A stretch of 39,011 bases of DNA from a virus (Duplodnaviria; Caudoviricetes). The position numbers and the translations under genes were made by a program. Each line of letters begins with the position of its first letter. Positions within the stretch are counted from its first letter, which is position 1. Location: the IMG/VR virus record IMGVR_UViG_3300020044_010657, positions 1-39,011 of that record, one strand, 5' to 3'. Below, one piece after another: positions 14,172 to 34,500 of this stretch. The notes beneath the pieces were generated by a model. The model saw nothing but the letters and a program-made list of their open reading frames with translations. It was not told where the DNA came from and made no database searches.

Positions 14172-14550
14172 ATCTGTTACGCAAGAACTAAATCAATTTG
14201 AGCTTGAGTGCGTTGAGTTTCTCGGACAATGGTTTATGGCAAACAAAGGGCGTAAAAACTCCATTAAAAACGCACAGATATCCAAAATAGTAGAGAATAA
14301 ATTTGGTAAAAAACTTGTTGAAGCAAGAGTGAGAAAGGTTGTCCAGGCTCTTAGAATGAATGGACTGCCAAATCTAATTGCATCAGGCAAAGGTTATTTC
14401 TACACGGAAGATATAAAAGAAATTGAAGAGTGGATAATCAGCCTAAAGCAAAGAGAACTTGCAATCCGCACAATTCGTGAAAAAGCTGAAAGACAAGTTG
14501 AAATCATGCAGTTCGCCAAACACGCAAGAAAGCAAATGAACCTTTTTTAA
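14155..14550 (+). CDS. Winged-HTH protein with C-terminal QxxLF
   Basis: IKNAQI...ARVRKVVQALRMNG.P.LIASGKGYF pattern; ends QMNLF. Confidence 0.65.
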   Translation: MLKKFESVTQELNQFELECVEFLGQWFMANKGRKNSIKNAQISKIVENKFGKKLVEARVRKVVQALRMNGLPNLIASGKGYFYTEDIKEIEEWIISLKQRELAIRTIREKAERQVEIMQFAKHARKQMNLF

Positions 14551-14945
14551 GAATTGATTTTTCTATCAATATAGGCTAAGGCTACATGCGATAAAGAAGC
14601 TCCTGGGATAAAATACCACCAGGAGCTTTCTGTATACATATATAGCACAATAAAGCAAGCCGTGAATACATAGACATTCATGCAGAATATGCAATTTCCA
14701 AATGGCTTTGCAAGCACTTTAAATGGACTATTCTCAATTGCCTTGATTACTTTTTGCCAAAATCCAAATATCTGATTCGGTGAAATTAGATAATCAATGA
14801 ATATTGTTACTAAGGCAGCTGCAATAGAGGTGAACGTAACCATATACACCTCTTGAAGCATTGTAGTAGAAGATAGGAAAGCTGTAAGGATTGCTCCAAC
14901 ACAAACTCCTGAGAAAATTGCAATTGGTATTTCTAACTTCTTCAT
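14547..14945 (-). CDS. 4-TM membrane protein with CxxC (DUF1360/VKOR-like motif placement)
   Basis: Start MKKLEIP at 14945 just after the upstream stop; KPFGNCIFC at the start of the third hydrophobic segment. Confidence 0.75.
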   Translation of the reverse strand: MKKLEIPIAIFSGVCVGAILTAFLSSTTMLQEVYMVTFTSIAAALVTIFIDYLISPNQIFGFWQKVIKAIENSPFKVLAKPFGNCIFCMNVYVFTACFIVLYMYTESSWWYFIPGASLSHVALAYIDRKINS

Positions 14946-14946
14946 A

Positions 14947-15243
14947 TTAGCAAATTGGAATAACACCACTAACTTCAAAACAGCAAGCACCATCACTACT
15001 TGTCAAATAAGGAACAGCACTTCCTGGTGGAGTTTTGATTTTTATCATTGTAGTGCTATTCTCATTGTAAGCAAACTCTACTTGAATATTATCTCCTACT
15101 TCAAAATATACAAGGTTAACGCTGAAACCACCGTTAGATGTTATTTCAAAAGTGTAATAACCATCATAAGGAGCGGTAATCCCAAAATCAATTGTATCCC
15201 CTCCAATATAACAACCTAAATTCTTAGTACAGCCGCAGTTCAT
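14947..15243 (-). CDS. Small Cys-rich beta-rich protein, probably virion-associated
   Basis: MNCGC...GACC...PIC; 6 Cys in 98 aa. Confidence 0.7.
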   Translation of the reverse strand: MNCGCTKNLGCYIGGDTIDFGITAPYDGYYTFEITSNGGFSVNLVYFEVGDNIQVEFAYNENSTTMIKIKTPPGSAVPYLTSSDGACCFEVSGVIPIC

Positions 15244-15261: not shown

Positions 15262-15269
15262 CAAATATA
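15262..15269 (-). promoter_or_regulatory. Putative -7 promoter element
   Basis: TATATTTG 18 nt upstream of the ATG at 15243; no clear -33. Confidence 0.5.
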
Positions 15270-15270
15270 G

Positions 15271-15825
15271 TTAGCACCCCGAATTGAAACACGGGTTTTG
15301 ACAATAAAATTCCAATGCCATATCTACATCAGCTGTTACATTGAAATCATGAGCAACAAAAATAAGGTTTTTGTCAAAAATCTTTGGTGCTTTTGATTCA
15401 TCAGTTAAAACCTGTATTGAATCTATCTGAGATGAAACAGGTGTTACAGTTGCATTGGCAAAAGTTGATGATACTGGTAGACTCGCGTTCATTAGCACAT
15501 ATCTAATTCTGCTTTCAAGCTCATAGGCATCAACATTCTTCATACAAGCCACAATACGCATTTGATACTCAACCCGAACAAAGTTTTGCATTCCTGTAAA
15601 CTTTTTCTGAGAAGAATCACCATAAGTTATTTCACCTGTTGTTCTGTGGCGAATGTAGAAATAACTATCGTCAAAATCATTAAGACCAGCAAAACGATAC
15701 TCATTTACATTATTATCCTGTATAAGAACCCTGCCTTCTTCATCTAAACGCGCTATTGCTACACCTTTTTTAAACTCAAGTTTTTGTAAAAGGTCTTTGG
15801 CTAAACAATGGATTACATCTTTCAT
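15271..15825 (-). CDS. Putative tail-completion / terminator protein
   Basis: 184 aa, follows the neck gene; call is positional; Cys-rich C-terminus. Confidence 0.5.
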   Translation of the reverse strand: MKDVIHCLAKDLLQKLEFKKGVAIARLDEEGRVLIQDNNVNEYRFAGLNDFDDSYFYIRHRTTGEITYGDSSQKKFTGMQNFVRVEYQMRIVACMKNVDAYELESRIRYVLMNASLPVSSTFANATVTPVSSQIDSIQVLTDESKAPKIFDKNLIFVAHDFNVTADVDMALEFYCQNPCFNSGC

Positions 15826-16274
15826 GAAATAAGTATTTTTTCAATTTGAATATCTAATGCCTTACCAATAAACACTTCAAGAATATCTATTTCATCCTCT
15901 GTTGGTTTGAAAATATAAAATTCCCTCAAGTCTTCTTGCTTCATGGCCTTTTCATTGTAATCAAAATCATTATCAATCACAATGGCAACACTATTTGAAT
16001 CGGCAATTTTAGTTTTCATGCTTTTTCTAAGCCTACCACTAAACTTGAGGTCTACAAAGTTTGTTTGTAATCCTTTTTTAGAACGAACACTACCCCATCT
16101 TTCAGAATATCCAACGCCAATAGGATTATTATCTGAATTTAATCCTTCTAAGAATATGCGCTCTTTCATAATGCCTTCAAGACCCCTTGTAGGACTAAAA
16201 AGAATTTTATTCACTTCTTTGGAAAGCAAATTATCCAATTTTTTTATTTTGCCAATAGCTTGGTCAATGGTCAT
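15822..16274 (-). CDS. Putative neck / virion morphogenesis protein (HK97 gp10 / Mu gpG-like)
   Basis: VDLKFSGRLRKSM motif and size. Confidence 0.6.
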   Translation of the reverse strand: MTIDQAIGKIKKLDNLLSKEVNKILFSPTRGLEGIMKERIFLEGLNSDNNPIGVGYSERWGSVRSKKGLQTNFVDLKFSGRLRKSMKTKIADSNSVAIVIDNDFDYNEKAMKQEDLREFYIFKPTEDEIDILEVFIGKALDIQIEKILIS

Positions 16275-16711
16275 TTCTTCCTAATTGTTTTGATTAGATA
16301 GGCAATAGAACCTATTGCTAAAAATAGTGCAAAACAAAAGATTGCTATCCAGCGAATAGCATTTTTAGTCTCATCAACTTGCTCAATAGCCTTTTCCTTG
16401 ATAATCTCAAGAACTTTCTCAACTCGAACTGTATCAGGAGGACAAGTAGTCTCAACGTAAACTGAATCACCAGGAAGGAACATAAGCTCAGTTCTGATGT
16501 CAGTCTGATGGTCGTGTATGATTAAGGTGTCGAGCCTCTTATACTGCACAAGTGTATCAAAGCTCCTTGTTTCAGTTACAATTACCGTATCCTTGTAATA
16601 AGTCTTAATTTCCGTTTGCGCAGGATATCGTTCAGCACACTTTTCCGCAGTCATGCAGGAATTAAGGATTGCTATTATTGCTATTGTCTGTATGATTAGA
16701 TAAGCTCTCAT
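16271..16711 (-). CDS. Unimolecular spanin (u-spanin)
   Basis: N-terminal lipobox LNSC, beta-rich middle, C-terminal TM plus basic tail; directly downstream of holin. Confidence 0.75.
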   Translation of the reverse strand: MRAYLIIQTIAIIAILNSCMTAEKCAERYPAQTEIKTYYKDTVIVTETRSFDTLVQYKRLDTLIIHDHQTDIRTELMFLPGDSVYVETTCPPDTVRVEKVLEIIKEKAIEQVDETKNAIRWIAIFCFALFLAIGSIAYLIKTIRKK

Positions 16712-17153
16712 TTTTATATGTATCTACTTTTTTGTTAATCCAAGTCGCGAAATCTCTCTTAATATAACCCAAAAGCGAAAGATTCTTGATAAGAGAAAGC
16801 ATATTGACAAGGACAATTGGCACAAAGATACCTTCATTAAGCCATCCAAGAAACACGCTTCCCTTAGCAAGATTATTAGCAAACATCAACAAGCCTATAT
16901 GAGACAACAACTTCCAAAAGATGGATAGTGCCTTCCTTGTGTCAACCGAATCCCTTTTCCAAGCCACAACAAGGCTTGTAATGTGGTCAGCGGCAATGAG
17001 CGCAAGTAAAGCAAACAATGATGCCGCAGGTGAGAAAATCCAATCTTCTACAAAGCCTGTGAAAGCACCAATTGAGAATCCACCTACAACGGTTATCAAT
17101 AGAACATGTTTTTTGAAATTCAAGCATAAAACTTCTATTGCAATGGATTTCAT
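16662..17153 (-). CDS. Holin
   Basis: Several TM segments, ALIAADHITSL and SLIKNLSLLG motifs typical of holin families; start 17153 or TTG at 17195. Confidence 0.8.
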   Translation of the reverse strand: MKSIAIEVLCLNFKKHVLLITVVGGFSIGAFTGFVEDWIFSPAASLFALLALIAADHITSLVVAWKRDSVDTRKALSIFWKLLSHIGLLMFANNLAKGSVFLGWLNEGIFVPIVLVNMLSLIKNLSLLGYIKRDFATWINKKVDTYKNESLSNHTDNSNNSNP

Positions 17154-17203
17154 ATCGCCATGCAACGTATTGTTAATATACGACTTGAGTTTCAAAAATG
17201 TTC

Positions 17204-17305
17204 CTATTTCGGTCGTGATGTTGGTCGTGGTCGTGATGTTGCTGGACGAGTTGATGGTCGTGAAGGCTTTCCACAAGCACCACAGGCTTTAATATTGTTA
17301 TTCAT
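17204..17305 (-). CDS. 33-aa basic CxxC peptide (not in ORF track)
   Basis: MNNNIKACGACGKPSRPSTRPATSRPRPTSRPK; strong A-rich leader. Confidence 0.65.
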   Translation of the reverse strand: MNNNIKACGACGKPSRPSTRPATSRPRPTSRPK

Positions 17306-17339: not shown

Positions 17340-17414
17340 ACCGATACAATAAGCGAAAAACGGTGGAATTCTCATGACAGACATTGCCTCACTAATAAGT
17401 GGGGCTTTGTTTTT
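17340..17414 (+). ncRNA. Putative ~75-nt small RNA
   Basis: Intergenic stretch bracketed by a consensus promoter and an intrinsic terminator on the same strand. Confidence 0.6.
17386..17414 (+). terminator. Intrinsic terminator of the sRNA
   Basis: GCCTCACT-AATA-AGTGGGGC followed by TTTGTTTTT. Confidence 0.7.
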
Positions 17415-18354
17415 ATGGGTTTCCATAAACGTATCTTGATTGATTACAAATCACACAAATATCGTCAATTCGCTTGAATAGTTCAGGCAATTGGTTCACA
17501 ACGATTTTCATGTGGTTGTTATATTGCATGCTAAACTCCTCATAGAGAAAGTTTATTTTATCATTGTCAAGCAAAGTAACTGAGTTAAGTCGGTCAGTAG
17601 CTTTAGCTTCCTTTACTATTTCAAGTCCTGCCTTATAAAGAATTGGAAAGCGAAGATGCTGAGATATGATACATATCAGCTCATCAATCTTGCATTCAGC
17701 AGTCAATTGCGCTTTAATTCCATAAGAATTATTGCCAACTCCTGAACCACTCCATCCATTTACAAGCATGAACTGAGAAGACTTTGAAGAGCAACTGCAT
17801 CCAGATTTTACATCTGTATCTGCTGGATTAATAGCTGTATTATCCATCAGAATGTAAATTTCCCGATTAGAGGAAATGTAATTGGCAAAAACACTTGCCT
17901 CACCATTTGCGTCTGTTATAAAAGGAAACGATGTGGAGTTCAATCCATCAATAATCTCAAAAGAATGAGTGAAATTAGCTTGCTGGATTCTGATTTTCAC
18001 CTCTCCAACAAACACACGCATCATTCGAGTGTTTTTAACTGTTGCCTTTATCCCTCTGTCATTAGGTGATGGAGCAAGATAATTAGCATTGAAATCACCA
18101 ACTAAAAGCTCATCAATTGCACTATTTACTCTAAAATATGGTAGCAAGTAGCCACTAAGCTCTTGCATGACAAGTTCAGAAGCAAAATTAATCTTCTTTT
18201 CAAGCAATTGAAGTCCACTAATGTAGCCGCTATCAGCAATGTCTGCCGCCATGCGAATATTGATTCCTTCAAGGTCGTTTATCCACAAACCACTCTTTGG
18301 ATTTGCAGAAAGGCATTTTACGCCAATTAAATTATCAAGACAACTTGGTAGCAT
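17413..18354 (-). CDS. Virion structural protein (possible head-tail adaptor)
   Basis: 313 aa in the late operon, 8 Cys clustered at termini and in one loop; function inferred by elimination. Confidence 0.5.
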   Translation of the reverse strand: MLPSCLDNLIGVKCLSANPKSGLWINDLEGINIRMAADIADSGYISGLQLLEKKINFASELVMQELSGYLLPYFRVNSAIDELLVGDFNANYLAPSPNDRGIKATVKNTRMMRVFVGEVKIRIQQANFTHSFEIIDGLNSTSFPFITDANGEASVFANYISSNREIYILMDNTAINPADTDVKSGCSCSSKSSQFMLVNGWSGSGVGNNSYGIKAQLTAECKIDELICIISQHLRFPILYKAGLEIVKEAKATDRLNSVTLLDNDKINFLYEEFSMQYNNHMKIVVNQLPELFKRIDDICVICNQSRYVYGNP

Positions 18355-20160: not shown

Positions 20161-20168
20161 CAAAGATA
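20161..20168 (-). promoter_or_regulatory. Putative -7 promoter element
   Basis: TATCTTTG directly after the terminator, 17 nt upstream of the ATG at 20143. Confidence 0.5.
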
Positions 20169-20171
20169 AAT

Positions 20172-20196
20172 AAAAAAGGGAGCTATTACACTCCCC
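20172..20196 (-). terminator. Intrinsic terminator after capsid/tube genes
   Basis: GGGAG-TGTAATAG-CTCCC followed by TTTTTT. Confidence 0.8.
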
Positions 20197-20224
20197 TTTT
20201 AACCATAACCAATAACAATAACTA

Positions 20225-20770
20225 TTAACCTACTCCATTAAGGTTAACATCGACACCGCAAAGCATGTCCAAGTCCAACCAGGAGATAGTTCCATCGAAG
20301 TAGATATTACCTGTTGAGTTATCTTCAATTACTTGGTCAACCTCAATTGAGAATTCAGGTACTAAACCATAGAAGAAACCATCACAAGTGTAATATCCCA
20401 TTTGATAAGATGAGGCATTGTTTACAATCTTGTTCCAAAAGAGAATATCCTTACAAGAAGCGGTATCGCTATTATAATCTTGGAAGGTAATTTGGTTCTC
20501 TTTACCAACGAGCTGTTCAGGAGCGCATGATGAAATACGCTTCTTAGTGAATGAACCCTTTGGCTTCTGAGCAAGAAGCAAACCTGTAAACACAACATTT
20601 TCGTCAGCAACAGCCGCAATCCATTCATCGCGGTCAGAGATGTCAATAAATGTGTAATTACATTTTACGAAAATCAATTTAGAAATACCACCCGAACGAA
20701 CATTAATTCCACATCCTTGGGTGATTGAATCGGGTAGTGATACCGCGCAATTAGTAGGACAAAGTGCCAT
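20225..20770 (-). CDS. Putative major tail (tube) protein
   Basis: 181 aa, beta-rich, GGISKLIF motif; co-transcribed with capsid before a terminator. Confidence 0.6.
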   Translation of the reverse strand: MALCPTNCAVSLPDSITQGCGINVRSGGISKLIFVKCNYTFIDISDRDEWIAAVADENVVFTGLLLAQKPKGSFTKKRISSCAPEQLVGKENQITFQDYNSDTASCKDILFWNKIVNNASSYQMGYYTCDGFFYGLVPEFSIEVDQVIEDNSTGNIYFDGTISWLDLDMLCGVDVNLNGVG

Positions 20771-20806: not shown

Positions 20807-21829
20807 TTAGTCGCAACCTACGATTGTTGAGCAGTCTTCAAAGTTGAACGTGTAGTTAACACCCTCATTGGTATCTCCTGTTGCAAATGCGTTTGTTGGC
20901 AAGAAGAACATAGCCCAATGCAACTGCAACTTGATAGTCCAACGGTCAGCACAATCGTCGTAGTGTACTTTCAAATCGTAAGTCAAGCCTGTGAATGGGT
21001 CAGTAATAGTACCGTGCTCAAACACATCATTACGCTTAGCGTAATCACCTGCATAACGATTCCAAGTAATCAACTGAACAGCACCAGGAGCAAGAACAGC
21101 AAAGTTGCCAGTTCCAAGTACAGACTCAGCGAAACGGTCGTGATAGTACATGTAGTCAGTCCAACGAGCGAGGTCAGTACCTGTGGTTGAGTTGCAACAA
21201 GCGATTTGATTCACTTTAGCAAACAAATCCAAGTTACCACCACCAATCATCATTGGAGCACCACTTGCACCTGTCATATCGTACTGGTGACGAATCTGAG
21301 CAGTAGCAATAGCACGAGAAGCATTGCTTGTGTCTTCAAACAACTTTACACTCTTCAGAGTAGTGCCATCGGCAAAGTTTCCAAAGTTTGTAGCTTGTAG
21401 AGCAAGCATCTGCTTGTCCAAAGCAACACTCAAAGCGTTCATCTGACCCATGATGGTCTGAGAAACCCAAAGTGAATCTGCTTCACACAATTTACGCATC
21501 TCATCTTCATTGAAAAGAAGAGCTGATTCAATACAATTGTCTACATCAACAATAGTTTCCTTTGGAGAAACCTCGTTAGTAGCAGTACAGTTGTTAGAAC
21601 AAGTGAGAGAAACAGTATCCTCGATTCCACGCTGAGCGTAGTTTACTTGAACCATACGCTTCTTTCCATTTGTAGGAATTGGCAAAAGTTCAACTCCAGC
21701 TGTGTTCTCTTGAGATACAACAGCATCCAAATAACCAACGCGGTCACGCTTTAGCTGTGGCGCGTTGCTACCTGCAACATCATTCAAATTGACTTGCAGG
21801 TTTTGACATAAACCTTCTGTAAAAGCCAT
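20807..21829 (-). CDS. Major capsid protein
   Basis: 340 aa, downstream of portal and scaffold, strong A-rich leader. Confidence 0.8.
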   Translation of the reverse strand: MAFTEGLCQNLQVNLNDVAGSNAPQLKRDRVGYLDAVVSQENTAGVELLPIPTNGKKRMVQVNYAQRGIEDTVSLTCSNNCTATNEVSPKETIVDVDNCIESALLFNEDEMRKLCEADSLWVSQTIMGQMNALSVALDKQMLALQATNFGNFADGTTLKSVKLFEDTSNASRAIATAQIRHQYDMTGASGAPMMIGGGNLDLFAKVNQIACCNSTTGTDLARWTDYMYYHDRFAESVLGTGNFAVLAPGAVQLITWNRYAGDYAKRNDVFEHGTITDPFTGLTYDLKVHYDDCADRWTIKLQLHWAMFFLPTNAFATGDTNEGVNYTFNFEDCSTIVGCD

Positions 21830-23059: not shown

Positions 23060-23067
23060 CAAATATA
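23060..23067 (-). promoter_or_regulatory. Putative -7 promoter element
   Basis: TATATTTG 14 nt upstream of the ATG at 23045. Confidence 0.5.
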
Positions 23068-23068
23068 A

Positions 23069-24823
23069 TTAATTGTTGTTTGATGGCGACTCATCTTCAG
23101 AGCTATTTGAATCCATGCTTGAATCACCATTTGAACTCATATCGTTAGGTGAATCTTCCATCATTTCCTCAGCAAGCATTGGAGCTAAGAAAGCATCAAT
23201 CATTGCAAAAATATCACTAATCGGCTCTTCAAGTACAGCAGTTCCATTTTGGGCAACTATTGTTGTCAAAGCCTTGTAGGCGTGAAGTGATTTAAGCACA
23301 TCTTCTTTCTCAATAATACCACTCTGCATCATGGAAATCTTATCCTTTGCGCTGATGGTATAAATAGGGTCATAGCTTACAAGAACCTCTACCAAACGAG
23401 ATACAGCTTTATTTCCGCTGAAACGCTTCCTTGCCAAGTCTTTTGTAGTCTCAATAAGGAAAGAAACAGGAGCATTACGGTCAGTAAGATTGATAATCTC
23501 TTGCATCAAATCCCATTCAGTCTTCATTGAGAAGGAAATAGGCTTGATGATATTTGGTGCTTGAGGATTTGTTACATTGCGATAAGCCTCAACATAAACA
23601 AGCGACTTATAGATTATTTCATCAAAGATGTTGTTGCTAATCTTGGTCAGCTGAGCAAATGAGTCTTCTCTGTCAATAATCTTAGCAACTCCGCTCTGAG
23701 CTTCATCAATCAAATTAAGATGCAAAGCATCCTCAGCCTTTTTGAGCAAAATTTGCCAAGCGTCACCTGAATACTGAATAATGTCAACTGGAGGGCTGAT
23801 AAATCTGATTAGAGGTTCGCTTGATGATTCACCTGAGAATGCAGCATTGCCTTTTTCTCTGATAAACACACCAAATGGCGAACGAGAAACTATTCTACCT
23901 GTTCCATTACATCTGCGACAAGTATCATGCTCATCATTATCTGAATCGTAAATAATACCATCACGGCATCCTTTAGCATCACATGTTTCACCCACTTCTT
24001 CTCTATATGGGAATGCAGATGTAGTCATTACACCCTGCCAATCAGAATACTGTCGTATAGCTTCATTAGCAAAAGGTACAAATGCGCTGAAATAACTCTC
24101 AAAGTATTTTTCAGGTGTCAAGTCACCACCAAGAACACAACCAGGCACTTTGCCAATGTTGTGAACATAAATAGGGATAATCTCAAACTGCAACTTTCTA
24201 TCATCACCATATTGAACGTGCTTATAGAAAGTATCTGTGGTCATAGTGTAATACACCAATCCCTCATCGACCATCTTATTTGACTTCTTAATTCTACTCT
24301 TCTCTTTGTAGTCAATCCAAGTAATAGAATAGCGGTCAATGTACTTTATTTGGTCTGTTCCAATAATCAAAGGCTCAACATCCACTTTTACAGATGGATT
24401 TGTCAATCCCTCACCAGTTGGAATCCATAGAATCCATCCGTTTGGGTCTTCAATCATTCGCGGAACGACAAACTTTTGGATATATGAATAGAAAAAGTTC
24501 TCATTGAACTTAACCGTACTCAAATAAGCATTCAGTTCATCGCTAACCTGAATTGAGAAATTTGCGTTTTGAAATATCCGATAAAGTTTATCTATCGCTT
24601 TCTGAATTGAGCCTTTGGTAATTGGCTCGTATATCATTTCGCGGTATTTCTTTATTTCGGGGTCTTCATTTGGTCTACGCTCAGTCAGAATACGCCCTGG
24701 TTTTTTACCACGGGTATGAACAAACATTGTTTCACGAACTTCAGACCAGTCCTCATAATAATCAGGACGATACTTTTTATCGGTCAAGATTACATTTATA
24801 TCTTCAATTGTTATCATTCGCAA
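23069..24823 (-). CDS. Portal protein with Zn-finger-like insertion
   Basis: 584 aa, AQSGVAKIIDRE motif typical of portals, acidic tail, upstream of scaffold/MCP. Confidence 0.8.
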   Translation of the reverse strand: MRMITIEDINVILTDKKYRPDYYEDWSEVRETMFVHTRGKKPGRILTERRPNEDPEIKKYREMIYEPITKGSIQKAIDKLYRIFQNANFSIQVSDELNAYLSTVKFNENFFYSYIQKFVVPRMIEDPNGWILWIPTGEGLTNPSVKVDVEPLIIGTDQIKYIDRYSITWIDYKEKSRIKKSNKMVDEGLVYYTMTTDTFYKHVQYGDDRKLQFEIIPIYVHNIGKVPGCVLGGDLTPEKYFESYFSAFVPFANEAIRQYSDWQGVMTTSAFPYREEVGETCDAKGCRDGIIYDSDNDEHDTCRRCNGTGRIVSRSPFGVFIREKGNAAFSGESSSEPLIRFISPPVDIIQYSGDAWQILLKKAEDALHLNLIDEAQSGVAKIIDREDSFAQLTKISNNIFDEIIYKSLVYVEAYRNVTNPQAPNIIKPISFSMKTEWDLMQEIINLTDRNAPVSFLIETTKDLARKRFSGNKAVSRLVEVLVSYDPIYTISAKDKISMMQSGIIEKEDVLKSLHAYKALTTIVAQNGTAVLEEPISDIFAMIDAFLAPMLAEEMMEDSPNDMSSNGDSSMDSNSSEDESPSNNN

Positions 24824-25869
24824 GTAAGTGATTTACTACAATCAATTTTTTCAAAATTAACTTCTAAATACCATTGCAAGCCAGTTTCATTGTTTCTGTT
24901 TATGTCACCTTGCACTTGATACTCTTCTCCGTTGACATAAACATTCCTTCCTGACAAAATATTTACTAAGTTTTTAACGAAAGATTGAGGCAAGTGAGTT
25001 GTTTTCAATTGCCAAACCTCACTCTTCTGACTCATTACAGTCTTTAGAGTTGTGCTAATTATCTCTTTTGTTATGTTAAAACTCGCTTGTTCAAAATATC
25101 CTGGCACTCTAATCTTATTAGAATACTCAAAGCTATCCAATCCTGTAAGATTATTTCCAAAGTACATGTCGAAACAATCTTGTTTTGGGTAGATTGATTC
25201 AATCAAAACCGTTGCTTTTTTATTGCAATCGTAGTATTTGAATGGCTCTGAACAGAAAGAAGCAGTTGCTTCGCTTATCGGTAAGCAAAATCTTGTTGTT
25301 GTAAAATTAAATCGGAAATAGAAACAGTTTTCAAGACCCTCAGCTTCCAAAAACAATCTGATTGCCTCAAGATTGAAGCGAATCATCTGAATTGGCTTTT
25401 GAGTCTGATTGCCTGAATAATCTGTTATAGTATAGCTTCCCACATATCTATTTGGAGCAATTATATCTAACATTTGCTCAGTTATGGTGAGAGCTGTATC
25501 ATCACAGCAAGTCAATATCTCAAAAGTAGCAAATGCTGTATTTGTTGGGCTTAAAAGATTAGCAGGAAGCCAATTATTCATGCACTCAACTCCAGTAATC
25601 TCATCAGGTTGCTGAAACTGAAAATCAAAAGTGTCGTTATCTTCGTATGGAATCCAAAATGGCAAGTCGTTACCACAAAGGTTGCAGTTCCAACCATCAC
25701 CACAATCACAAAGAACAAGACCATTACTTACGATTAGATTACCGCAAAATCCACAGATATTTTCAATCTCATGACAAAAAACGCGAGAGTTAGGGTCATC
25801 AAAATAACAGATACCTGTTAAGTCGCAATAAACCGCGTTTGCTTTTGAATAACTATCAAATAATTCCAT
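24814..25869 (-). CDS. Cys-rich tail protein (possible distal tail protein)
   Basis: 351 aa, 19 Cys; position in the tail-tip cluster. Confidence 0.55.
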   Translation of the reverse strand: MELFDSYSKANAVYCDLTGICYFDDPNSRVFCHEIENICGFCGNLIVSNGLVLCDCGDGWNCNLCGNDLPFWIPYEDNDTFDFQFQQPDEITGVECMNNWLPANLLSPTNTAFATFEILTCCDDTALTITEQMLDIIAPNRYVGSYTITDYSGNQTQKPIQMIRFNLEAIRLFLEAEGLENCFYFRFNFTTTRFCLPISEATASFCSEPFKYYDCNKKATVLIESIYPKQDCFDMYFGNNLTGLDSFEYSNKIRVPGYFEQASFNITKEIISTTLKTVMSQKSEVWQLKTTHLPQSFVKNLVNILSGRNVYVNGEEYQVQGDINRNNETGLQWYLEVNFEKIDCSKSLTCE

Positions 25870-25873
25870 ATTT

Positions 25874-25881
25874 CAAAGATA
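25874..25881 (-). promoter_or_regulatory. Putative -7 promoter element (possibly leaderless mRNA)
   Basis: TATCTTTG only 4 nt upstream of the ATG at 25869. Confidence 0.4.
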
Positions 25882-25887
25882 ATTGTT

Positions 25888-28800
25888 TTATGGGCATATT
25901 GCGTTTCCAATTTTAAAGCTACCAACAGTTGTCATATCAGTTCCCGTTGTAATTCTCATTGTCCATTCTCCCTGTGTTCCACTACCCCAAACAAAACTTA
26001 CACTTCCTGACGTTGAGCCTATTGGTAATGTGACCTGTGGAGTTCCTGAGTATCCAAATTGTCCAAACCAAAGTTGTACTATTCTTGTTGTTGCAATACT
26101 AAATGAATATTCAACAACATAGGTTTCGCCAGGAACAGGATATGGGGTTTCTCCCACTCTTGTATAGGCGCGTAGATACCTATTAAGTGTAGCGGAATTA
26201 AATGTCAATTGGAATGTATCACCAATTGTAACTGGTGGCATTGAGATGCCTTGTCCTGACTGATAACGATGGTCTAAGAAATACTCACAAATAGCTGCTG
26301 CATCAGGAGAACTAATGTATCCACAGAAGCGATAACGAGCATTTTCAAAGTTTGGAGCATCCAAAACAACCGAAGCAGTAAATGTAGAAGGGTCAAATGA
26401 TGTGTCCATTGACAGAACAAGCGGATTGGAAAGCTGTGTCATTCCTGTTAGGCTCAATGCTTCATTATTCTCAACAAGAGTGCTTATTCCAAAAGGCTCT
26501 TTTTCCATGAAGAAAATAAAGTTTCCTTCTCTGTTTGCTTGATAAGTAAGTCTGATTGCGTTCCAATCAGCAAAGCAAATTGGAGCTTCAACAGGGAGAT
26601 ATAGACCAGTTATCTTATCAAGACCTTCAACCGTAACATCTGTTATCACTTGCTCAAATCCTGAGTTTGCAGGCTCAAAGTCAATAGCATTTACTTTAAA
26701 TGATTTTACTAAGTTCCAAAGGAAAGTCTCACCAACTTGTGGTCTTAGATTAAATGTAAATATGTACTCAAAGTAAACATCACGATTAACCCAACTCTGT
26801 GTAATGTTGTTAGTTGCAATGTATCCGCTTGCCAAGAAGCCAACAGGAGACCTGTTCATGTACTCATCTGTACTTGCTACCAATACCTGTCCACCGCTAA
26901 AAGGCACAAGCTCCCAAGGCACTCGTATATTGTTTATAGAAGCAACTACTTCATTAGCACCTGTATCTGTAACAATTAAGTTGTTAAGATTTTCAAAGTT
27001 TCCTGCAAAAGCATTATTTCTAATTGAATAATGTGTTTGATATTGGAAGAAAGTGGTCTTATTGCTTGCAGGAAAGTTTTCTACTCTCTTGTAAATATTC
27101 AAGCGAACAGATTGTAATTGACTTCTCCAATCATTTATAAGCAATCCCAAATTATACATGCAAGTAGGAAAATCACCTGATGTTAAGCTAACTGAGTGAC
27201 CAATCCTTTCCTTGCCAACAGGCTGAAAACAATCTACCTCATGCTTTTGCCAAAACTGTGAAAAGTTAGAAACGATTGCAGGACTGCAATCACAATCCAT
27301 ATCAGGGTAACGACTAACTCTTATTTCATCAGAAATAAAAGTGTTAACCATAGTTCCGTTTGAACCATAAACAATTGCAGCAACTCTATAAGAAGAAGCT
27401 GTGTTTAAGTTAGAATCAACATGCAAAGAGAATATCCACCCCCCACTTGAAACCCCTGTTGTTCCAGGGCGAACTAAGTGATTATCTAAAACTCCTGTTC
27501 CTGGATAGCTTAAAACTCTATATCTTGAAGAGTCTGACGAGTTGAAAAAGTCAACCGCATTATCTTCAGAAGTAGCATTAAACAAGTGGAATATAACAAT
27601 AGGAGCAGATGTTCCATAAATTGATGGAACATTAATTTCAAACTGAACCTTTGTATTTTGGAAAACTGAGAAATTAGTTACAGCATTTCCTTGTCTTGAA
27701 AGAGTAAATGAAGGATTCAAGAACTCTGCTACCCCGTTATTCAGTCCTTTATTATAAAACCTTGATGCAAAGTTTGAGCAAGTATAAGTAAGACACTTGA
27801 AAGGAGAGTCATTTACAAGAGTTCCAGGGTCTGTCATCAAGAAAGCACCTTGAATGAATTTATCCAAGCTATTATAAACAGATGGCAATGAGTTACTCCA
27901 ATCTGTTGTTTCTGAAAGAGTATTACGCTTTAGCTTATTTGAATTAGTCCATGTCAAGTTTGTAATGAATCCTTCATAATCTTGAATATCATAAAATGTC
28001 AATTCAATATTGAAAGTTCCGTTTCCTGAATTAATAGGTCTAAAATTAACTTCCCAATTCTTCAGATTCATTGCGTTGGAAGTAACTCCAAGCAAAGTCA
28101 TTGGTTGAGCAACGCCATCTAAATGTGCGCCCGATAAAAATTGATAATAATATCTAACAGGGAAGTTTGCAGTTCCATCAAAAGGAGCTGTACAATCAAA
28201 TGTATAAAGAGCAGGATTAAACTGAATATTCCAACCTGTAATCAATCCTGCCTGATATTTCATCTTAAACACCACAGTCTTTTTCTCTAAGAAACTTGCT
28301 GTGTTATATTGAACGGCACTATCACAAAAGCCAGTCTGCACAGGTAGATAATTGTTTTCAGTTTGAATCTGAATATCTAAGCAGCAAAGACAATCACAAG
28401 GCTCTTCTAAAACAGAACCTGTTACGAAAAAATCAACTCCGCAAAATGTTGGGTAACAAAATAAAGCATCACTTTGATTTGTTGGCGTCCATTCTAATGT
28501 TATTAATCCGCTTGCTCCTTGCAGAATAAATGTGGGGTCTGGATTTAAAATTGGGTCAGGAGAACCACAACCGTTTGTATCAAAGTGAACATCTACACGC
28601 CCGATTGTATTGTTGTTAAATGTAACAGACCTTGTATTTGTTGCATTTAATACGGAATCAGTAAAATCAAAAGTATTAGAGCTTAGAAGCAAATTAAAGT
28701 CTGCACATTCCATATTGAATGTGTATGGCAACTCATCACCATGCTCAACTGTTTGTAATTGAAAAGTCCACGATGATAAGGGGTCTGTAACAGTATCCCA

Positions 28801-29730
28801 ACAAACCGCAAACTTGAAAATAACAGTTTCACCAGGATTCATTGTAGGCCATGATGGTGGCTGTGAGAAGAAATTCACAAACGAAACATTGACACCACTT
28901 CCTGCATCCGTTATGAAAAAGTCATTAAGAGTTACAGGTGTATTGTGAGTGTTTTGAAATGTTACAAATGTATCTTGGCAAGTTTGACAGCATGCAAGAT
29001 AATTTGTTCCTTCGGGGTCTAATCCACCATCTACTATTTCTAATCTGTGAATTTGAACCGCTGCTGTTGCAACACCGCTAAAAGATATAGGTGTATTGCA
29101 AAAATAAACATCACAGTTTAATATATCACCTTCATTGAATGGTGTCCATTGAAATTCTAAACCTACCGTTTCGCCAGGTTGTACTAATACTTGACCTGGA
29201 ATCATTTCAAAAAGACCTACTGAGCATAATGCGGTTTGTGGCTGAAATAAATAAGCCCCCATTGATGTATTTGTAACCTGAATCGTTTGTGTGGCTGGTA
29301 CATCTGATGGAACGCTTCCAAAATTTACTGAAGTTTGACTAAAAAAATCAACAACATCAATACATTCAGTATTGAATTTATAAAATAGGTCATTACCATG
29401 TTCTGCTGTGACCATAGTCATTCTAAAAGCAGAAGTGGGAACTTGATTGTAGCACACCTCAAGTTCAACCTGTATTGTATCCCCTGGAAATACCGTATAT
29501 GGATAAGTGTAGTTCTGATTGCCATTAATTGCCCAAACCTGAACGAAAAGACCATCACCATAGGCAACTGTGTTGATTATAATGTTGGTTAATGTAAGAG
29601 GGCTATTGTGCTGATTCTGAAAAGTTAAAACGGGATTTTGACAATATGAACATAAACATTCCAACCCATTCACTAATCCTGATTCTTCAGGGTTTAAGCC
29701 ATCTGTAAGTACAAACCTATGTATGCTCAT
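25888..29730 (-). CDS. Large tail / receptor-binding protein with duplicated Ig-like modules
   Basis: 1280 aa, beta-rich, two ~225-aa N-terminal repeats, Cys clusters at domain junctions. Confidence 0.7.
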   Translation of the reverse strand: MSIHRFVLTDGLNPEESGLVNGLECLCSYCQNPVLTFQNQHNSPLTLTNIIINTVAYGDGLFVQVWAINGNQNYTYPYTVFPGDTIQVELEVCYNQVPTSAFRMTMVTAEHGNDLFYKFNTECIDVVDFFSQTSVNFGSVPSDVPATQTIQVTNTSMGAYLFQPQTALCSVGLFEMIPGQVLVQPGETVGLEFQWTPFNEGDILNCDVYFCNTPISFSGVATAAVQIHRLEIVDGGLDPEGTNYLACCQTCQDTFVTFQNTHNTPVTLNDFFITDAGSGVNVSFVNFFSQPPSWPTMNPGETVIFKFAVCWDTVTDPLSSWTFQLQTVEHGDELPYTFNMECADFNLLLSSNTFDFTDSVLNATNTRSVTFNNNTIGRVDVHFDTNGCGSPDPILNPDPTFILQGASGLITLEWTPTNQSDALFCYPTFCGVDFFVTGSVLEEPCDCLCCLDIQIQTENNYLPVQTGFCDSAVQYNTASFLEKKTVVFKMKYQAGLITGWNIQFNPALYTFDCTAPFDGTANFPVRYYYQFLSGAHLDGVAQPMTLLGVTSNAMNLKNWEVNFRPINSGNGTFNIELTFYDIQDYEGFITNLTWTNSNKLKRNTLSETTDWSNSLPSVYNSLDKFIQGAFLMTDPGTLVNDSPFKCLTYTCSNFASRFYNKGLNNGVAEFLNPSFTLSRQGNAVTNFSVFQNTKVQFEINVPSIYGTSAPIVIFHLFNATSEDNAVDFFNSSDSSRYRVLSYPGTGVLDNHLVRPGTTGVSSGGWIFSLHVDSNLNTASSYRVAAIVYGSNGTMVNTFISDEIRVSRYPDMDCDCSPAIVSNFSQFWQKHEVDCFQPVGKERIGHSVSLTSGDFPTCMYNLGLLINDWRSQLQSVRLNIYKRVENFPASNKTTFFQYQTHYSIRNNAFAGNFENLNNLIVTDTGANEVVASINNIRVPWELVPFSGGQVLVASTDEYMNRSPVGFLASGYIATNNITQSWVNRDVYFEYIFTFNLRPQVGETFLWNLVKSFKVNAIDFEPANSGFEQVITDVTVEGLDKITGLYLPVEAPICFADWNAIRLTYQANREGNFIFFMEKEPFGISTLVENNEALSLTGMTQLSNPLVLSMDTSFDPSTFTASVVLDAPNFENARYRFCGYISSPDAAAICEYFLDHRYQSGQGISMPPVTIGDTFQLTFNSATLNRYLRAYTRVGETPYPVPGETYVVEYSFSIATTRIVQLWFGQFGYSGTPQVTLPIGSTSGSVSFVWGSGTQGEWTMRITTGTDMTTVGSFKIGNAICP

Positions 29731-29742
29731 TTCTTTGCTTTT

Positions 29743-31527
29743 TTAAACTATACCTTTTACTGCGATAGTGCGTTTTACAAAATCTACGCTCAATTCTTTA
29801 ATCTCACCAAATTTAATATTGTTTCCAACTTTTAGACGCACATTTTTGGTAAAATCTATTGACGAGAACTCACCACAATCAAAATCAAAAGTGAAGCTAA
29901 ACTCATAAAGTTTATTACCAGGAGCCCTTGGATTATTGATATAATGAAATAAAGTGTAAAGATTATTTGTGTTTTCTTCGTTAAACCACATTGGATAATT
30001 GAAAAGCCTGTTTGGGTCGAGTTGTTGGTCAGCAAAATAAGTGTCCATAGTTGGAAACGGGTAAACAGAACCAATAACATATCCACCTGTAAAAGCTGTT
30101 GAATAACCTCTTTCAACCCTCGCTTCATCATCACCTGAACTTGAATCCCAAATCAAAAACTTATAGTTAAAGGCTGTGTGCTGAGACATCAATAGCAAGT
30201 TTCGTGAATTAGCAAGAGCATTACCAAATAAAGGATTTTGAAGACCCCCATTTCCAAAAGCTTCATATCCAGCAAAGTCATCTCTAAAACGAGCTATTCC
30301 TGATAGCATCTGATTATCCATAAAACCTGACTGAGCAGCTGATGGTGGGCTATTCCATTCAACGATAGTATTAAATCGTTCTGCTGCTTCATAAGCAATC
30401 AAATCAGAACCATCCTGCAAATAGTTATATACTCCGTAAGCGTATTTATCTTCATCAATCCAAGATAGGCAAATTCTATTGTCTATAATTCTTCCATTGT
30501 TTAGAAGGTTCTCTGAATCAATCCAAGTGTTTGTGTTTTGAAAAAAGTCTCTCCTCTCAAAAATCAAAACCCCATCTACAATCCAATATCTCGCATTGAA
30601 CAAAGGCTTTAAATGCCGTTGCATCAAAGTATCCAATGTCTCAATTGGCAAGTTCTCACTTATCAATAGACCATTTGTTTCGCTTGGCTTGTATCCTTTT
30701 CTAACAGGAGCTGAAAAAAGCAAAAGATTGTAATAAGGAGAAGCAGGGTCATTTAAAATTGAACTTTCAAATTCAAGACCACATTTATCACAAACATTTT
30801 GTATGTAGTCGCGAACAAGTGCAGTTGGATGATACCATTGACATTGAATAAGCCTGTTTTGTAAATCAGTAAGCCATCCTGAAATTTCACTAAAAGCTCC
30901 ATCAGGATTTGTCCACGTTCCACCTGAACACGTTTGAGAATTACAAGGTGTTCCAGGAATAACACAAACTATTTGACAAACAACAAAAGCAACTGATTGA
31001 ATTACAATAACAACAAGAGATAAAGGAAGCAATACAGCATAAATCACAGCATTTAAGATTGCATAAATAAACAAAAGAACATCGGTGATAAACTGAGGAC
31101 GCATCTCTACGCAATACCTCAATTTCTTTTGCTGACGATTTAAAAACCCATCGTGATTGTCATAAAGAAGCGTACTCTTGATGCAATTAAGCTCAGGGGT
31201 CTTTTCTATGACTTGGCAACTAACCCAACACTCAGGTTCGCACCAATCAACAGAGTCACCCCGAATCACTCCTTGAAAAACAGGAGCAGCACAGCACTCA
31301 TCAAAAACCTCCACATTGACTTCCTTGATGTATCCAGTAGAATCATCAATAAGTTCTGTCCTTAAAATGTTGTATCCATCTCCATAAAAGGTAAGCTCGT
31401 TGCTGTACGATTTGAGCAAAACACCCTCCTCATCACTTTCACGGTATGTGATTACAAATTGGTCAGTTCCGTTAATCTGACCTGTAACTAAAATGCCATT
31501 GAGCTTTATTATAACGGGTGATTTCAT
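29743..31527 (-). CDS. Tail tip / hub protein with internal hydrophobic segment
   Basis: 594 aa directly after the tape measure; PLFNARYWIVDGVLIFERRDFF hub-like pattern. Confidence 0.6.
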   Translation of the reverse strand: MKSPVIIKLNGILVTGQINGTDQFVITYRESDEEGVLLKSYSNELTFYGDGYNILRTELIDDSTGYIKEVNVEVFDECCAAPVFQGVIRGDSVDWCEPECWVSCQVIEKTPELNCIKSTLLYDNHDGFLNRQQKKLRYCVEMRPQFITDVLLFIYAILNAVIYAVLLPLSLVVIVIQSVAFVVCQIVCVIPGTPCNSQTCSGGTWTNPDGAFSEISGWLTDLQNRLIQCQWYHPTALVRDYIQNVCDKCGLEFESSILNDPASPYYNLLLFSAPVRKGYKPSETNGLLISENLPIETLDTLMQRHLKPLFNARYWIVDGVLIFERRDFFQNTNTWIDSENLLNNGRIIDNRICLSWIDEDKYAYGVYNYLQDGSDLIAYEAAERFNTIVEWNSPPSAAQSGFMDNQMLSGIARFRDDFAGYEAFGNGGLQNPLFGNALANSRNLLLMSQHTAFNYKFLIWDSSSGDDEARVERGYSTAFTGGYVIGSVYPFPTMDTYFADQQLDPNRLFNYPMWFNEENTNNLYTLFHYINNPRAPGNKLYEFSFTFDFDCGEFSSIDFTKNVRLKVGNNIKFGEIKELSVDFVKRTIAVKGIV

Positions 31528-34500
31528 CTTGCTCTGTTGTTTATTCTTTGGTTCTTATAAGTAATCCTTGAAACAATTCCATTGATTCCATTCTCGTCAA
31601 TTGAAAGTTGTAATCCTTTCTGACCAACAATAGCTTTTTCAATTCTTTCAAGTCTTTCGTCAGTAGACTTGTTGTTTATGACAACAGCTCTTTCATTAAT
31701 CATTGTAGCAAGCTCAGGCTTTCTTCCTGTATGGATTGCTTCAAGAAGTGGTCTGTATTGTCTTGTCTTTTCAGCAGTAATAACGAACTCGCCTTTGTGA
31801 ACTGTTCCTGCCTCTTGATATTTACCACCATCTCCTGTGTAACCACCCTTGGCAAATGTAGCAGCAGCATTAGCTTGCGCTCTTGCTTGTGCAAATCCAA
31901 CCGCCATAGCTGCGAGTATTGCTACGATTGTAAGTGGCGCACCTGGTTGAGTTGCCGCCTTTGCAACAGCAATTGCACTATTTACAGCAATCTCAACAGC
32001 AGCAAGGTTTTGTTGCTGACGAACAAATGCAGCTCTTTGACGATTAAGTTTGTCAAGGCGTTCCTGCTCAGCTTTTAATAAAATAACATTACCCTTGTCT
32101 GCAATTCGCTGTGCTTCTGAAACTCTTTTTTCTTGAGCAGAGATTGCAGCTTCTGTTTGCTGAATCTGTCCATCAATAAATACCTTTTGGAAATCTAAGA
32201 ATGCTAACGTGATGTCCTGAAACGCTTGTATTCTTGCATCTCGTTCTTCTTTTATTACAGCAAGTTGAGCTTCATTGTTTTCATTGATTGCCTCGGTATC
32301 TTTTTTCTGCCTTTCGCGTCTTCTTTCAGCAAATGTCTTTCTAATACCATCAATTTCTGTTTCAGCCTCTACATTGATTTTGGTTATTTTAAGACCTTTG
32401 TCAGATTCAACTGCAATGTTTTTTTCAATTTCAAGGCGCAAGTCTTTATATCCCTGCTCAATATTTCCAATTTCTATCTGATATTGAATATTGGCTAATC
32501 TTGTTTTCTTAGATTTTTCCGCTTGAGAGTCAGAGGAAGAGTTTATCAAAAACAACTCTAAATCTAATGCATCCTTTTTAATTTTCTTTTCATCATTTAC
32601 CGCCTTCAGATTTAAAGCATAATTTTCATCTAACAAGGCAATTTCAGCATTTCTTTTATCTTCTCTTCTTTTAACCTCATTTTTTTCTCTTTCACTCAAA
32701 AGTGAGAAGTATTCACGCTGGCTATTTTCAACCTCTCTAACAAACGGGTCTTCTTGACCTCTTTCCTGCACACCACGAGAGAATTGGAAAATATTTTGTC
32801 TTTTTGGTGGCTTATTTTGAGCATCGTAAAGCTCCTTTGCTTGTTTTATTCGCTTTTGATATTCTTTGTTAAGTTCTGCTTGAAGGTCAAACTCATTTTC
32901 AACATACTGAAGAGTTGTTTGATATTTTAGATTAAAATCGTCAATCAATTGAGTTCTGAGTTGCAGAGTATCTTGTGATGGCAATCCTAAATCTGAAATC
33001 TCTTTAAATGTTTCTTTTAACTTTTCAAGAGCCTCAGTAGGCGGTTGAATAACATCTTCAAATTGAAACTCAGTACCACCAAACTCTACTCTTGGAGCTG
33101 CAATAAATCTGCCTTTAGCAAACGGATTATCATCAAAGATGTCCTGGTAGAACTCATCAATTTGGTCTCTGAGTTTATCAAGAGAATCAAGTTCTGCATC
33201 AAGCCTTTGATTAGTTAATTCCTGATAAGCATCACCAAGTTCATTAGCAAGTTTTCTTCTTTCAACAAGCCCATCTCTTTCAATCTCGTAAAGTCTTTTT
33301 TCTAAATCTTTGGCTCTCTTTTCTTGCTCCTGACCACGAATGATTTCAAGTTGTTGTATTAAAGTATTCTTTTGCTGTTCGGTAATCTCCTTTCTTCTGA
33401 TAGATGAAATCTCTCTATCAATCTCTCTGTCTACCGTATCTTCATTAATTCTATCAAGCTGTTTCAGTTTAACAATTTCCTCTTCAAAGTCAGCCGCGTT
33501 AACAAACTCAAACTCAATCCGTTGCTTTCCAATGTCTTCGTTGTTTTTGCGAATGCGGTCAAGTAGTGAAGCGTATTCATCTTCAAACTCTTTAAGTTTA
33601 CGAAGACGGTCTTTCCTTTTTTTATCAGCCTCTTCATCTGCGTTTGGGTCGTACACTTCTGTTGCGGCAACCTGCTCTGTTTCTTTGCTCAATGCACCAA
33701 GAACACCATAAGACTCTATAAGTTTTTTAAGTTGAACATCAAGTGTTTGAACGGCATTTGCTCTTTCTAAAAGAACATTGTTTATTTTAACATCAGCACC
33801 ATATTGTGCTTGAACAGCCGCATTTGGATACGCGATAGAGAAAAGTTGGTCTGCTGCTCTTTCCAAAGAATTAGGCACATTGAAATTAGCCTCATCTAAA
33901 GCGGATTGAATTATAGCTTGAGTTTGTTTAAAGCCACTTTGAATCTCAGCATCATCAGTTATAAGCTCTAAAGGTATTTTTACATTGGCTTTAGAAGCAA
34001 CATTTAAAAGTTCTAACTGTACATCAGCAATCTGTTGGTCAAGTTTTTCTTTAATAGCACCAGCTGCTTTTTCTCTATTAGTCTGACTAATGGTAGTCTT
34101 TAAAATAGCGTATGCTGAATCAAGCTGTTTTACAAGTTTCAACTCATCACTACCAAACTCAAGTTGAGTTTTATATTCCTTGTTTATTTGTTCAATTGCA
34201 GCTTTTCTTTCTTCATCACTTTTCTTTGAGTTTTTTGCAGTATCTACAAGTGTTTTTAATGCTTTTGTTTGTTCATTAGTGGCCTTTTGAGCAGTAACCT
34301 CTAATTCGTTAAAAGCTTCGTTAGCATCAATAAAATTATCATTTGCACTATCAACTGCGTCTCCAAAAGTATAATATGCAGCAGCAACTGTCGCAAGTAT
34401 AGTCAATAGTAGACCAAGTGGATTAGCGGCAACAACAGCATTAAAAGCCGCTTGTGCCGCGCTTGCCGTTCTTGTGGCAACTGTCTGAACTACTAATGCG

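What the first reader, a model, noticed from the sequence alone, without database searches (positions are those of the whole stretch)
14547..14945. Candidate phage-encoded membrane thiol oxidase with cytoplasm-facing CxxC
Seen: four hydrophobic segments. The basic N-terminus (MKK), Lys-rich loop 2 and basic C-terminus (DRK) place KPFGN-CIFC at the cytoplasmic start of TM3 by the positive-inside rule. It is the last gene of a Cys-rich structural operon and shares a putative promoter with a CGC/CC protein. Established: DsbB and VKOR use a CxxC at a TM-helix start to pass electrons to quinone; inverted-topology versions can oxidise cytoplasmic proteins; poxviruses encode their own cytoplasmic disulfide pathway. 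Inference: a minimal oxidase that introduces disulfides into virions assembling in the reducing cytoplasm.
Basis: partly seen in the sequence, partly recalled or inferred. Interest (0 to 1): 0.85.

Follow-up and report, generated by a model that had tools for sequence, protein, structure and literature searches.

The report
Phage membrane CxxC disulfide-forming candidate
A bacterial virus with an unusually cysteine-rich shell carries a small membrane protein related to the uncharacterised DUF1360 family, whose conserved cysteine pair is predicted to face the cell interior and likely helps lock the shell together with disulfide bonds, although no such activity has been measured and some related viruses manage without the gene.

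Summary
The ORF (14547-14945, minus, 132 aa) is real. G83-x-C85-x-x-C88 is invariant in 65 of 65 aligned relatives, and charge bias puts it on the cytoplasmic side in all 65. It is a divergent DUF1360 (PF07098) relative, with no detected DsbB/VKOR homology and no second Cys pair. It ends the virion block of a tailed phage whose shell proteins hold 2.9% Cys. In a panel picked only by terminase motif, the two carriers rank first and second of 25 for virion-module Cys. A Bacillus DUF1360 gene lies between two 12-Cys, likely spore-surface genes. Against: Milano has virion disulfides without it, five crassviruses lack it yet share crAss001's Cys-bearing virion proteins, and some carriers have Cys-poor heads. 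Best reading: a dispensable, likely cytoplasm-facing thiol oxidase assisting shell cross-linking (0.5); activity, direction and electron acceptor are untested. How phage disulfides form is stated as open in a 2026 preprint. The scan raised this idea twice before on other genomes.

The parts
14547..14945 (-). P0001: 132-aa 4-TM membrane protein, divergent DUF1360 relative, candidate thiol oxidase
14682..14708 (-). K80-P-F-G-N-C85-I-F-C88 motif at the predicted cytoplasmic start of TM3
   Evidence: G83, C85, C88 invariant in 65 of 65 rows; topology by charge bias
14947..15243 (-). 98-aa MNCGC...CC...C protein, predicted Ig-like beta-sandwich; likely virion accessory protein and candidate substrate
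   Evidence: adjacent in 58 of 62 member loci, 7 of those without Cys in the first 16 aa; low-confidence Atlas model resembles Ig/cohesin/BACON-like domains
15262..15269 (-). TATATTTG, putative Bacteroidota-type -7 promoter element for the two-gene unit
   Evidence: kept in 5 of 5 related loci shown; consensus recalled; 18 papers hold the term (search listing only)
15271..15825 (-). 184-aa late protein with conserved Cys (likely tail completion; role inferred from position)
16271..16711 (-). lipoprotein with lipobox Cys19 and C-terminal TM, likely unimolecular spanin (pattern recalled)
   Evidence: sequence; C19 13/13, C25 11/13, C90 12/13
16662..17276 (-). holin (Phage_holin_4_1)
17413..18354 (-). 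313-aa Cys-rich late protein (likely head-tail connector, inferred), 4 Cys in at least 20 of 21 rows plus C5
18335..18874 (-). amidase endolysin
20225..20770 (-). tail tube protein with six invariant Cys (C4, C8, C20, C37, C82, C129)
   Evidence: Foldseek hits are tail tube folds, best E 4.5e-4
20807..21829 (-). 340-aa likely major capsid protein (inferred from position after portal and scaffold), 10 Cys, C8/C81/C115 in 12 of 12 rows
23069..31527 (-). likely portal and three Cys-rich tail proteins (19, 32 and 16 Cys)
   Evidence: roles inferred from size and order
31524..35969 (-). tape measure protein, 0 Cys in 1481 aa
36891..38165 (-). terminase large subunit

Best explanation
P0001 is a divergent DUF1360-type membrane protein whose invariant CxxC is predicted to face the cytoplasm and likely acts as a minimal thiol oxidase that helps form disulfide cross-links in the phage's cysteine-rich virion late in infection. 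Shown: the ORF, the motif, its conservation, the DUF1360 link, the late-operon position and the association with Cys-rich shells. Predicted: topology and fold. Inferred: C85-C88 cycles between dithiol and disulfide, takes electrons from virion protein thiols (directly or through the co-transcribed MNCGC protein) and passes them to a membrane acceptor such as menaquinone, perhaps as an oligomer because a 3-helix core is smaller than DsbB or VKOR. It would be a helper rather than a requirement: cross-links can probably also form by air oxidation after lysis.
For: CxxC invariant with no other conserved Cys, so a single-chain four-Cys metal site is unlikely. Cytoplasmic side in 65 of 65 rows, the compartment where virions assemble. 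Conserved late position beside the MNCGC gene in 58 of 62 loci, with a conserved putative promoter. Shell Cys are positionally conserved, e.g. six invariant Cys in the tail tube. Virion-module Cys 0.82-2.38% in 13 carriers against 0.53-1.19% in 23 non-carriers, Mann-Whitney P = 1.7e-5; the two carriers found in the terminase-picked panel (G002, G039) rank 1 and 2 of 25. crAss001, whose virion has solved disulfides (PMC10172136, passages), encodes a member (gp97; E 4e-12; top Foldseek hit). In two unnamed Bacillota genomes the DUF1360 gene lies between two ~150-aa, 12-Cys ORFs, and in B. subtilis, which has a PF07098 match over the cut-off, yjcA adjoins cotV (PMC11708026, passage); that YjcA is the DUF1360 protein, and that these neighbours are CotY/ExsY-type disulfide-linked proteins built in the mother-cell cytoplasm, is recalled.
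Against: Milano has an extensive disulfide network (PMC10811340, title and passages; Jabs preprint section 17) but no member by A2, A3, PF07098 or a generic TM-CxxC scan. Four crassviruses without the gene (cr85_1, IAS, cr116_1, bajarodcaudo 1) keep the tail Cys of crAss001 gp39, gp40 and gp43, and 'tikkala' (capsid 99.8% identical to crAss001, has gp57) lacks it. In crassviruses it sits in a variable accessory region, near a TROVE gene in 2 of 3 examined, not among virion genes. Carriers G058 and G059 have module Cys of only 0.82 and 0.98%, and Gordonia phage Clown has 2 Cys in 618 aa of capsid protein. Ten of the 13 carriers belong to one related phage group, so the P value overstates independence. 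No homology to DsbB or VKOR beyond the CxxC and no second Cys pair. No activity data.
Confidence: 0.5

Rival explanations
1. Same link to the Cys-rich shell, opposite or neutral chemistry: the CxxC keeps virion thiols reduced, shuffles wrong disulfides, or holds and delivers a metal (with a second subunit or the MNCGC protein supplying ligands) until assembly ends; the final cross-links form by air oxidation after lysis.
For: Explains the same co-occurrence and the dispensability; the Jabs preprint proposes oxidation during or after lysis (section 17); no quinone-oxidase fold was found.
Against: The cytoplasm is already reducing, so a dedicated membrane reductant adds little; only two conserved Cys per chain; a membrane anchor with conserved aromatics next to the CxxC (F60 54/65, W/Y63 60/65, W92 48/65) fits a lipid-phase acceptor better than a metal chaperone (inference).
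Confidence: 0.22
2. An accessory membrane protein unrelated to virion Cys (redox sensor, host-takeover or anti-defence factor) that became fixed at the end of the late operon in one phage group.
For: In crassviruses it is patchy and lies in a variable region with tRNA, tmRNA, TROVE or NAMPT genes; most carriers in my statistics are kin.
Against: Four separate settings tie it to shell genes: this phage group, the G002 phage, actinophages where it precedes the portal gene and Bacillus loci flanked by 12-Cys ORFs.
Confidence: 0.16
3. A lysis-cassette helper (holin regulator, or maturation factor for the Cys-bearing spanin).
For: Small multi-TM protein in a block that also holds amidase, holin and a likely spanin.
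Against: A holin is already present; spanin Cys lie in the periplasm while the CxxC is predicted cytoplasmic; in other lineages it adjoins portal, tape-measure or capsid genes rather than lysis genes.
Confidence: 0.08

Closest known systems
DUF1360 (Pfam PF07098), e.g. crAss001 gp97, Gordonia phage Clown gp15, B1 mycobacteriophage Aelin gp7, B. subtilis YjcA (last identity recalled)
   Same: TM - basic amphipathic loop - CxxC-x3-W - TM - TM layout; profile and fold links; often beside shell genes.
   Different: P0001 itself scores nothing on PF07098; its subfamily has a KPLG lead-in and an optional extra N-terminal TM. No function is reported: 2 papers hold the term DUF1360; in the one read (passage) it is only named.
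DsbB (PF02600) and VKOR (PF07884), including the archaeal inverted VKOR
   Same: CxxC at the start of a TM helix in a small helical membrane protein; inverted VKOR is a precedent for a cytoplasm-facing version (named in 10.64898/2026.03.26.714578, passage).
   Different: hhalign probability 0.5% and 1.2%, aligning the CxxC only (small templates of 4 and 3 sequences); no second Cys pair; 3-helix core; no thioredoxin-fold partner recognised in the window by Pfam (30 proteins scanned).
Poxvirus E10R-A2.5L-G4L cytoplasmic disulfide pathway (recalled)
   Same: Virus-encoded route to virion disulfides in a reducing cytoplasm.
   Different: Soluble FAD-dependent Erv/ALR enzyme and glutaredoxin; no such genes seen here; unrelated sequence.
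Disulfide-cross-linked phage virions: Milano, Jabs, crAss001, T1
   Same: Conserved Cys across capsid, connector and tail, Cys-free tape measure (Milano TMP 0 of 778).
   Different: No catalyst was named in the passages read; Milano lacks this gene; Jabs could not be checked (genome not in the collection); T1 not checked.

Membership tests
DUF1360 (PF07098) | Score over the Pfam gathering cut-off (21 bits) | tested here: not met
   P0001 and its 18 close relatives give no PF07098 hit; 3 of 50 distant hits reach 14.8-16.9 bits
DUF1360 (PF07098) | Transitive profile link between this family and true PF07098 members | tested here: met
   cr106_1 member: A3 E 3.8e-14 and PF07098 21.2 bits; A2 finds Clown gp15 at E 2.5e-4; hhalign 78.6%, E 1.7e-5; A3 finds the Bacillus DUF1360 at E 6e-5 in a small ORF set
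DUF1360 (PF07098) | Same predicted fold | tested here: met
   Foldseek BFVD: crAss001 gp97-sized protein first (TM 0.67, prob 1.00, E 7e-3) and five rows named DUF1360 within the top 16; none reach E 0.001
DsbB (PF02600) | Sequence or profile homology | tested here: not met
   No Pfam hit; hhalign 0.5% over 8 columns
DsbB / VKOR | Second redox-active Cys pair in a loop | tested here: not met
   Only C85 and C88 conserved; 10 of 65 rows have no other Cys
VKOR (PF07884) | Sequence or profile homology | tested here: not met
   No Pfam hit; hhalign 1.2% over 12 columns
DsbB / VKOR | Four-helix quinone-binding fold | tested here: inconclusive
   Neither family is listed by Foldseek or VIA-align (best Z 7.6, unrelated)
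DsbB / VKOR | CxxC at the N-terminal end of a TM helix | tested here: met
   C85/C88 at the start of helix 86-105
Membrane thiol oxidases (function) | Quinone binding and dithiol oxidation | not testable with these tools
   Needs biochemistry

The most novel reading that the evidence does not exclude
DUF1360 and its relatives are a third class of membrane thiol oxidase, unrelated to DsbB and VKOR and facing the cytoplasm, used by many phages and by Bacillus mother cells to cross-link cysteine-rich shells (virions, spore crust or exosporium) that are built inside a reducing cytoplasm. This would be the first phage-encoded disulfide-forming pathway and would answer the question left open for Jabs.
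Probability: 0.4. Interest if true: 0.9.

Novelty: new variant of a known kind. Interest (0 to 1): 0.7.

Why it matters
A 2026 cryo-EM preprint on phage Jabs (about 1,700 virion disulfides) states that whether such bonds form spontaneously or through host- or phage-encoded oxidoreductases is open (10.64898/2026.07.24.740622, section 17). This family gives a named, small, easily expressed candidate, with natural plus/minus pairs among cultured phages (crAss001 versus 'tikkala') and a bacterial copy in B. subtilis. If it oxidises cytoplasmic thiols it would give DUF1360 a function, add a new fold to disulfide biochemistry and be useful for making disulfide-bonded proteins in the cytoplasm. I found no paper proposing it (searches; open-access library only; bioRxiv supplements closed; the supplements of PMC10172136 were listed but not read).

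Tried and rejected
Pfam and PHROGs give no direct hit for P0001. PDB sequence search with A2: 0 hits at E 10. Foldseek PDB and VIA-align: nothing clear, VKOR and DsbB not listed. tblastn of P0001 in cultured phages: only E 8 hits; the likely capsid protein has no match there, so no cultured close relative exists for testing. Sigma-70 promoter and terminator scan at chance. Complex prediction of P0001 with the MNCGC neighbour gave no verdict (score 0.00), which is evidence neither way. An apparent perfect co-occurrence with the disulfide-linked crAss001 gp57 (same 3 of 15 genomes) was broken by 'tikkala', which has gp57 but not the gene. A terminase-anchored search of close kin gave no informative gene loss: all 8 records at least 90% complete carry it, and the 9 without are 39-86% complete. 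Whole-genome Cys content does not separate carriers from non-carriers; only the virion module does. Dropped from the 49-record panel: 20 not fetched, G035/G048/G049 (GC-rich, unreliable ORF calls, no terminase found) and G030 (only part fetched; its 1.87% came from the non-structural arm, its structural part gives 0.76%). One of 51 profile hits (P0035, plant NLR-like) and 1 of 55 motif loci (L026) were spurious. In cellular genomes the motif scan gave 3 clear members in 26 loci, 2 in clearly phage-like contigs. Jabs and T1 were not tested for the gene.

Full report
Observation. The window is a complete-looking 39-kb virus record with a plus-strand replication arm and a minus-strand virion and lysis arm: terminase, tape measure, amidase and holin are named by Pfam or PHROGs and the 181-aa gene at 20225-20770 folds like a tail tube. 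The host is likely a Bacteroidota (TAnnTTTG elements; members in Bacteroidota bins). The finding is the last gene of the minus arm, 132 aa. AlphaFold on 53 sequences gives four long helices and two short loop helices, with C85 and C88 at the start of helix 86-105 (pLDDT 87).

Conservation and topology. A profile search of 1.84 billion representatives gave 51 hits; 50 carry G-x-C-x-x-C and one is spurious. In the 65-row alignment A3 only G83, C85 and C88 are invariant; 12 of those rows came from a scan that required the motif, but the 53 rows of A2, found by profile, show the same three, although profile scoring also favours Cys. There is no second conserved Cys pair. Loop 2 averages 4.9 K/R and the C-terminus 1.8, against 0.3 and 0.1 for loops 3 and 1; the bias points the same way in 65 of 65 rows. 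By the positive-inside rule (established knowledge) the CxxC is cytoplasmic. About 47 of 65 rows lack the first helix, so the core is three TM helices.

Family. P0001 has no Pfam hit, but the ESM Atlas puts it nearest a viral cluster with 42% DUF1360, Foldseek ranks a 139-aa crAss001 protein first with several DUF1360 rows behind it, and crAss001 gp97 (139 aa, annotated DUF1360) reads YPLGFCIYC. The family profile finds gp97 at E 4e-12 and Gordonia phage Clown gp15, a PF07098 member over the cut-off, at 2.5e-4; the cr106_1 member satisfies both profiles. So it is a divergent relative of DUF1360. Comparison with small VKOR and DsbB alignments matches the CxxC only (1.2% and 0.5%), and neither appears in fold searches. 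It may work like them; it is not shown to be one of them.

Context. Gene order is kept in 7 of 7 close loci. A motif scan of IMG/VR gave 55 loci, 54 with a true member. The MNCGC gene is adjacent in 58 of 62 member loci, and a TATATTTG element precedes it in the window and in 5 of 5 loci shown. Ten shell proteins hold 2.89% Cys, the plus arm 1.38%, and six other late proteins none (grouping made after seeing counts). The Cys are positionally conserved: six of the tube in 14 of 14 rows, three of the likely capsid protein in 12 of 12. That these form disulfides is inferred from solved virions: crAss001 (PMC10172136, passages), T1 (PMC11945409, passages), Milano (PMC10811340, title and one passage) and Jabs (10.64898/2026.07.24.740622, abstract, passages and section 17).

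Co-occurrence test. I sampled phages by a terminase motif alone (120 loci), searched 49 whole records with A3 and PF07098, fetched 29 and could score 25. Two carry the gene: G039 (E 1e-25) and G002 (a 90-aa CPIC protein, PF07098 12.4 bits, found again by a generic scan). Cys in ORFs of 90-700 aa of the virion module is 2.38% and 1.62% for these, and 0.53-1.19% for the 23 others; both on top has a chance of 1 in 300 by my arithmetic. Adding 11 carriers from the motif scan and the window gives 13 versus 23, P = 1.7e-5. Limits: modules were defined by position, not by labelled proteins; seven were bounded by hand; some non-carriers are incomplete; ten carriers are kin; host and habitat are not matched.

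Results against. Milano has 10 Cys in its capsid protein and a solved disulfide network, yet no member by three profiles or a generic scan. Among 15 crass-like genomes the gene is in 3; whole-genome scans confirm absence in 8 others, and four of these keep the tail Cys of gp39, gp40 and gp43. 'Tikkala', 99.8% identical to crAss001 in capsid protein, lacks it. In crassviruses the gene lies in a variable accessory region. Carriers G058 and G059 have Cys-poor heads, though their likely tube proteins start with a CxC, and Clown's capsid protein has 2 Cys. The gene is therefore neither required for virion disulfides nor a sure mark of a Cys-rich capsid.

Independent settings. In actinophages Clown gp15 has matches in 290 records, and in many listed rows the gene overlaps or precedes the portal gene. 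B. subtilis holds a PF07098 match over the cut-off, and yjcA adjoins cotV (PMC11708026, passage); that YjcA is that match is recalled. Of 201 Bacillota genomes sampled, 2 near-identical loci have DUF1360, and in both it lies between two ORFs of about 150 aa with 12 Cys each, which I recognise from memory as CotY/ExsY-type spore-surface proteins, cross-linked by disulfides and assembled in the mother-cell cytoplasm. This is one lineage and unverified by Pfam, but it repeats the pattern outside phages.

Mechanism. The most likely reading (0.5) is a minimal cytoplasm-facing thiol oxidase: the C85-C88 disulfide would oxidise thiols of late proteins and be re-oxidised by a membrane acceptor, the conserved aromatics around the motif (F60, W/Y63, W92) forming the site, perhaps in an oligomer. 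All of these steps are inferred. Dispensability fits a helper that speeds or directs cross-links which air can also make after lysis. Rivals: reductant, isomerase or metal carrier for the same Cys (0.22); unrelated accessory factor (0.16); lysis helper (0.08).

Novelty. DUF1360 is a known family of unknown function: 2 papers in the library hold the term, and searches for a phage-encoded disulfide catalyst found none. The Jabs preprint calls the question open. Two earlier notes of this scan raised the same idea on other genomes (e1-5324900, e1-6114605); they are not independent evidence, and no look-alike of this sequence was on record. Verdict: real, conserved, a new variant of a known uncharacterised family with a testable and surprising candidate function; interest 0.7.

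Noticed in passing
window 16271-16711 (-): Lipobox (LNSC19) plus C-terminal TM and two further conserved Cys: likely a unimolecular spanin, unannotated by Pfam or PHROGs.
   Followed up: partly
window 15262-15269, 20161-20168, 23060-23067 (-): TAnnTTTG elements sit in short intergenic gaps before three late genes; the one at 20168 follows a terminator-like hairpin at 20173-20200.
   Followed up: partly
window 23069-24823 (-): The likely portal protein carries a CxxxxC...CxxC insertion with a weak DnaJ zinc-finger match (E 0.066), kept in about 7 of 10 rows.
   Followed up: no
window 19331-20143 and 25888-29730 (-): Cys-rich late proteins with ASH/HYDIN Ig-like domains; the 270-aa protein is variable in sequence but keeps about 12 Cys.
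   Followed up: no
L010, L031, L039, L040, L050, L055, L062: A subgroup keeps the CxxC gene while the adjacent MNCGC orthologue has lost its N-terminal Cys, so that neighbour cannot be a universal redox shuttle.
   Followed up: partly
L393 (cr108_1, MT774385.1): This crassvirus has lost most Cys found in crAss001 capsid, ring and tail proteins, gave no gp38/gp39 match in the 20 kb examined, and lacks the CxxC gene.
   Followed up: no
L447 ('tikkala', OQ198717.1 87800-92700): The TROVE/gp97/gp98 block of crAss001 is replaced by other small genes and two tRNAs: a natural deletion control.
   Followed up: partly
L484 and L485, 890-3304: DUF1360 gene flanked by two 12-Cys ORFs, a short ORF ending in GCNCG and a likely exosporium gene (names recalled, not Pfam-checked). 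The GCNCG echoes the phage neighbour's MNCGC.
   Followed up: partly
window 2491-3477 (+): Weak matches to DNA polymerase processivity factor families (PHROGs E 3e-7 to 6e-10).
   Followed up: no
L024 (195-kb contig): A family member in a large phage contig without the MNCGC neighbour.
   Followed up: no
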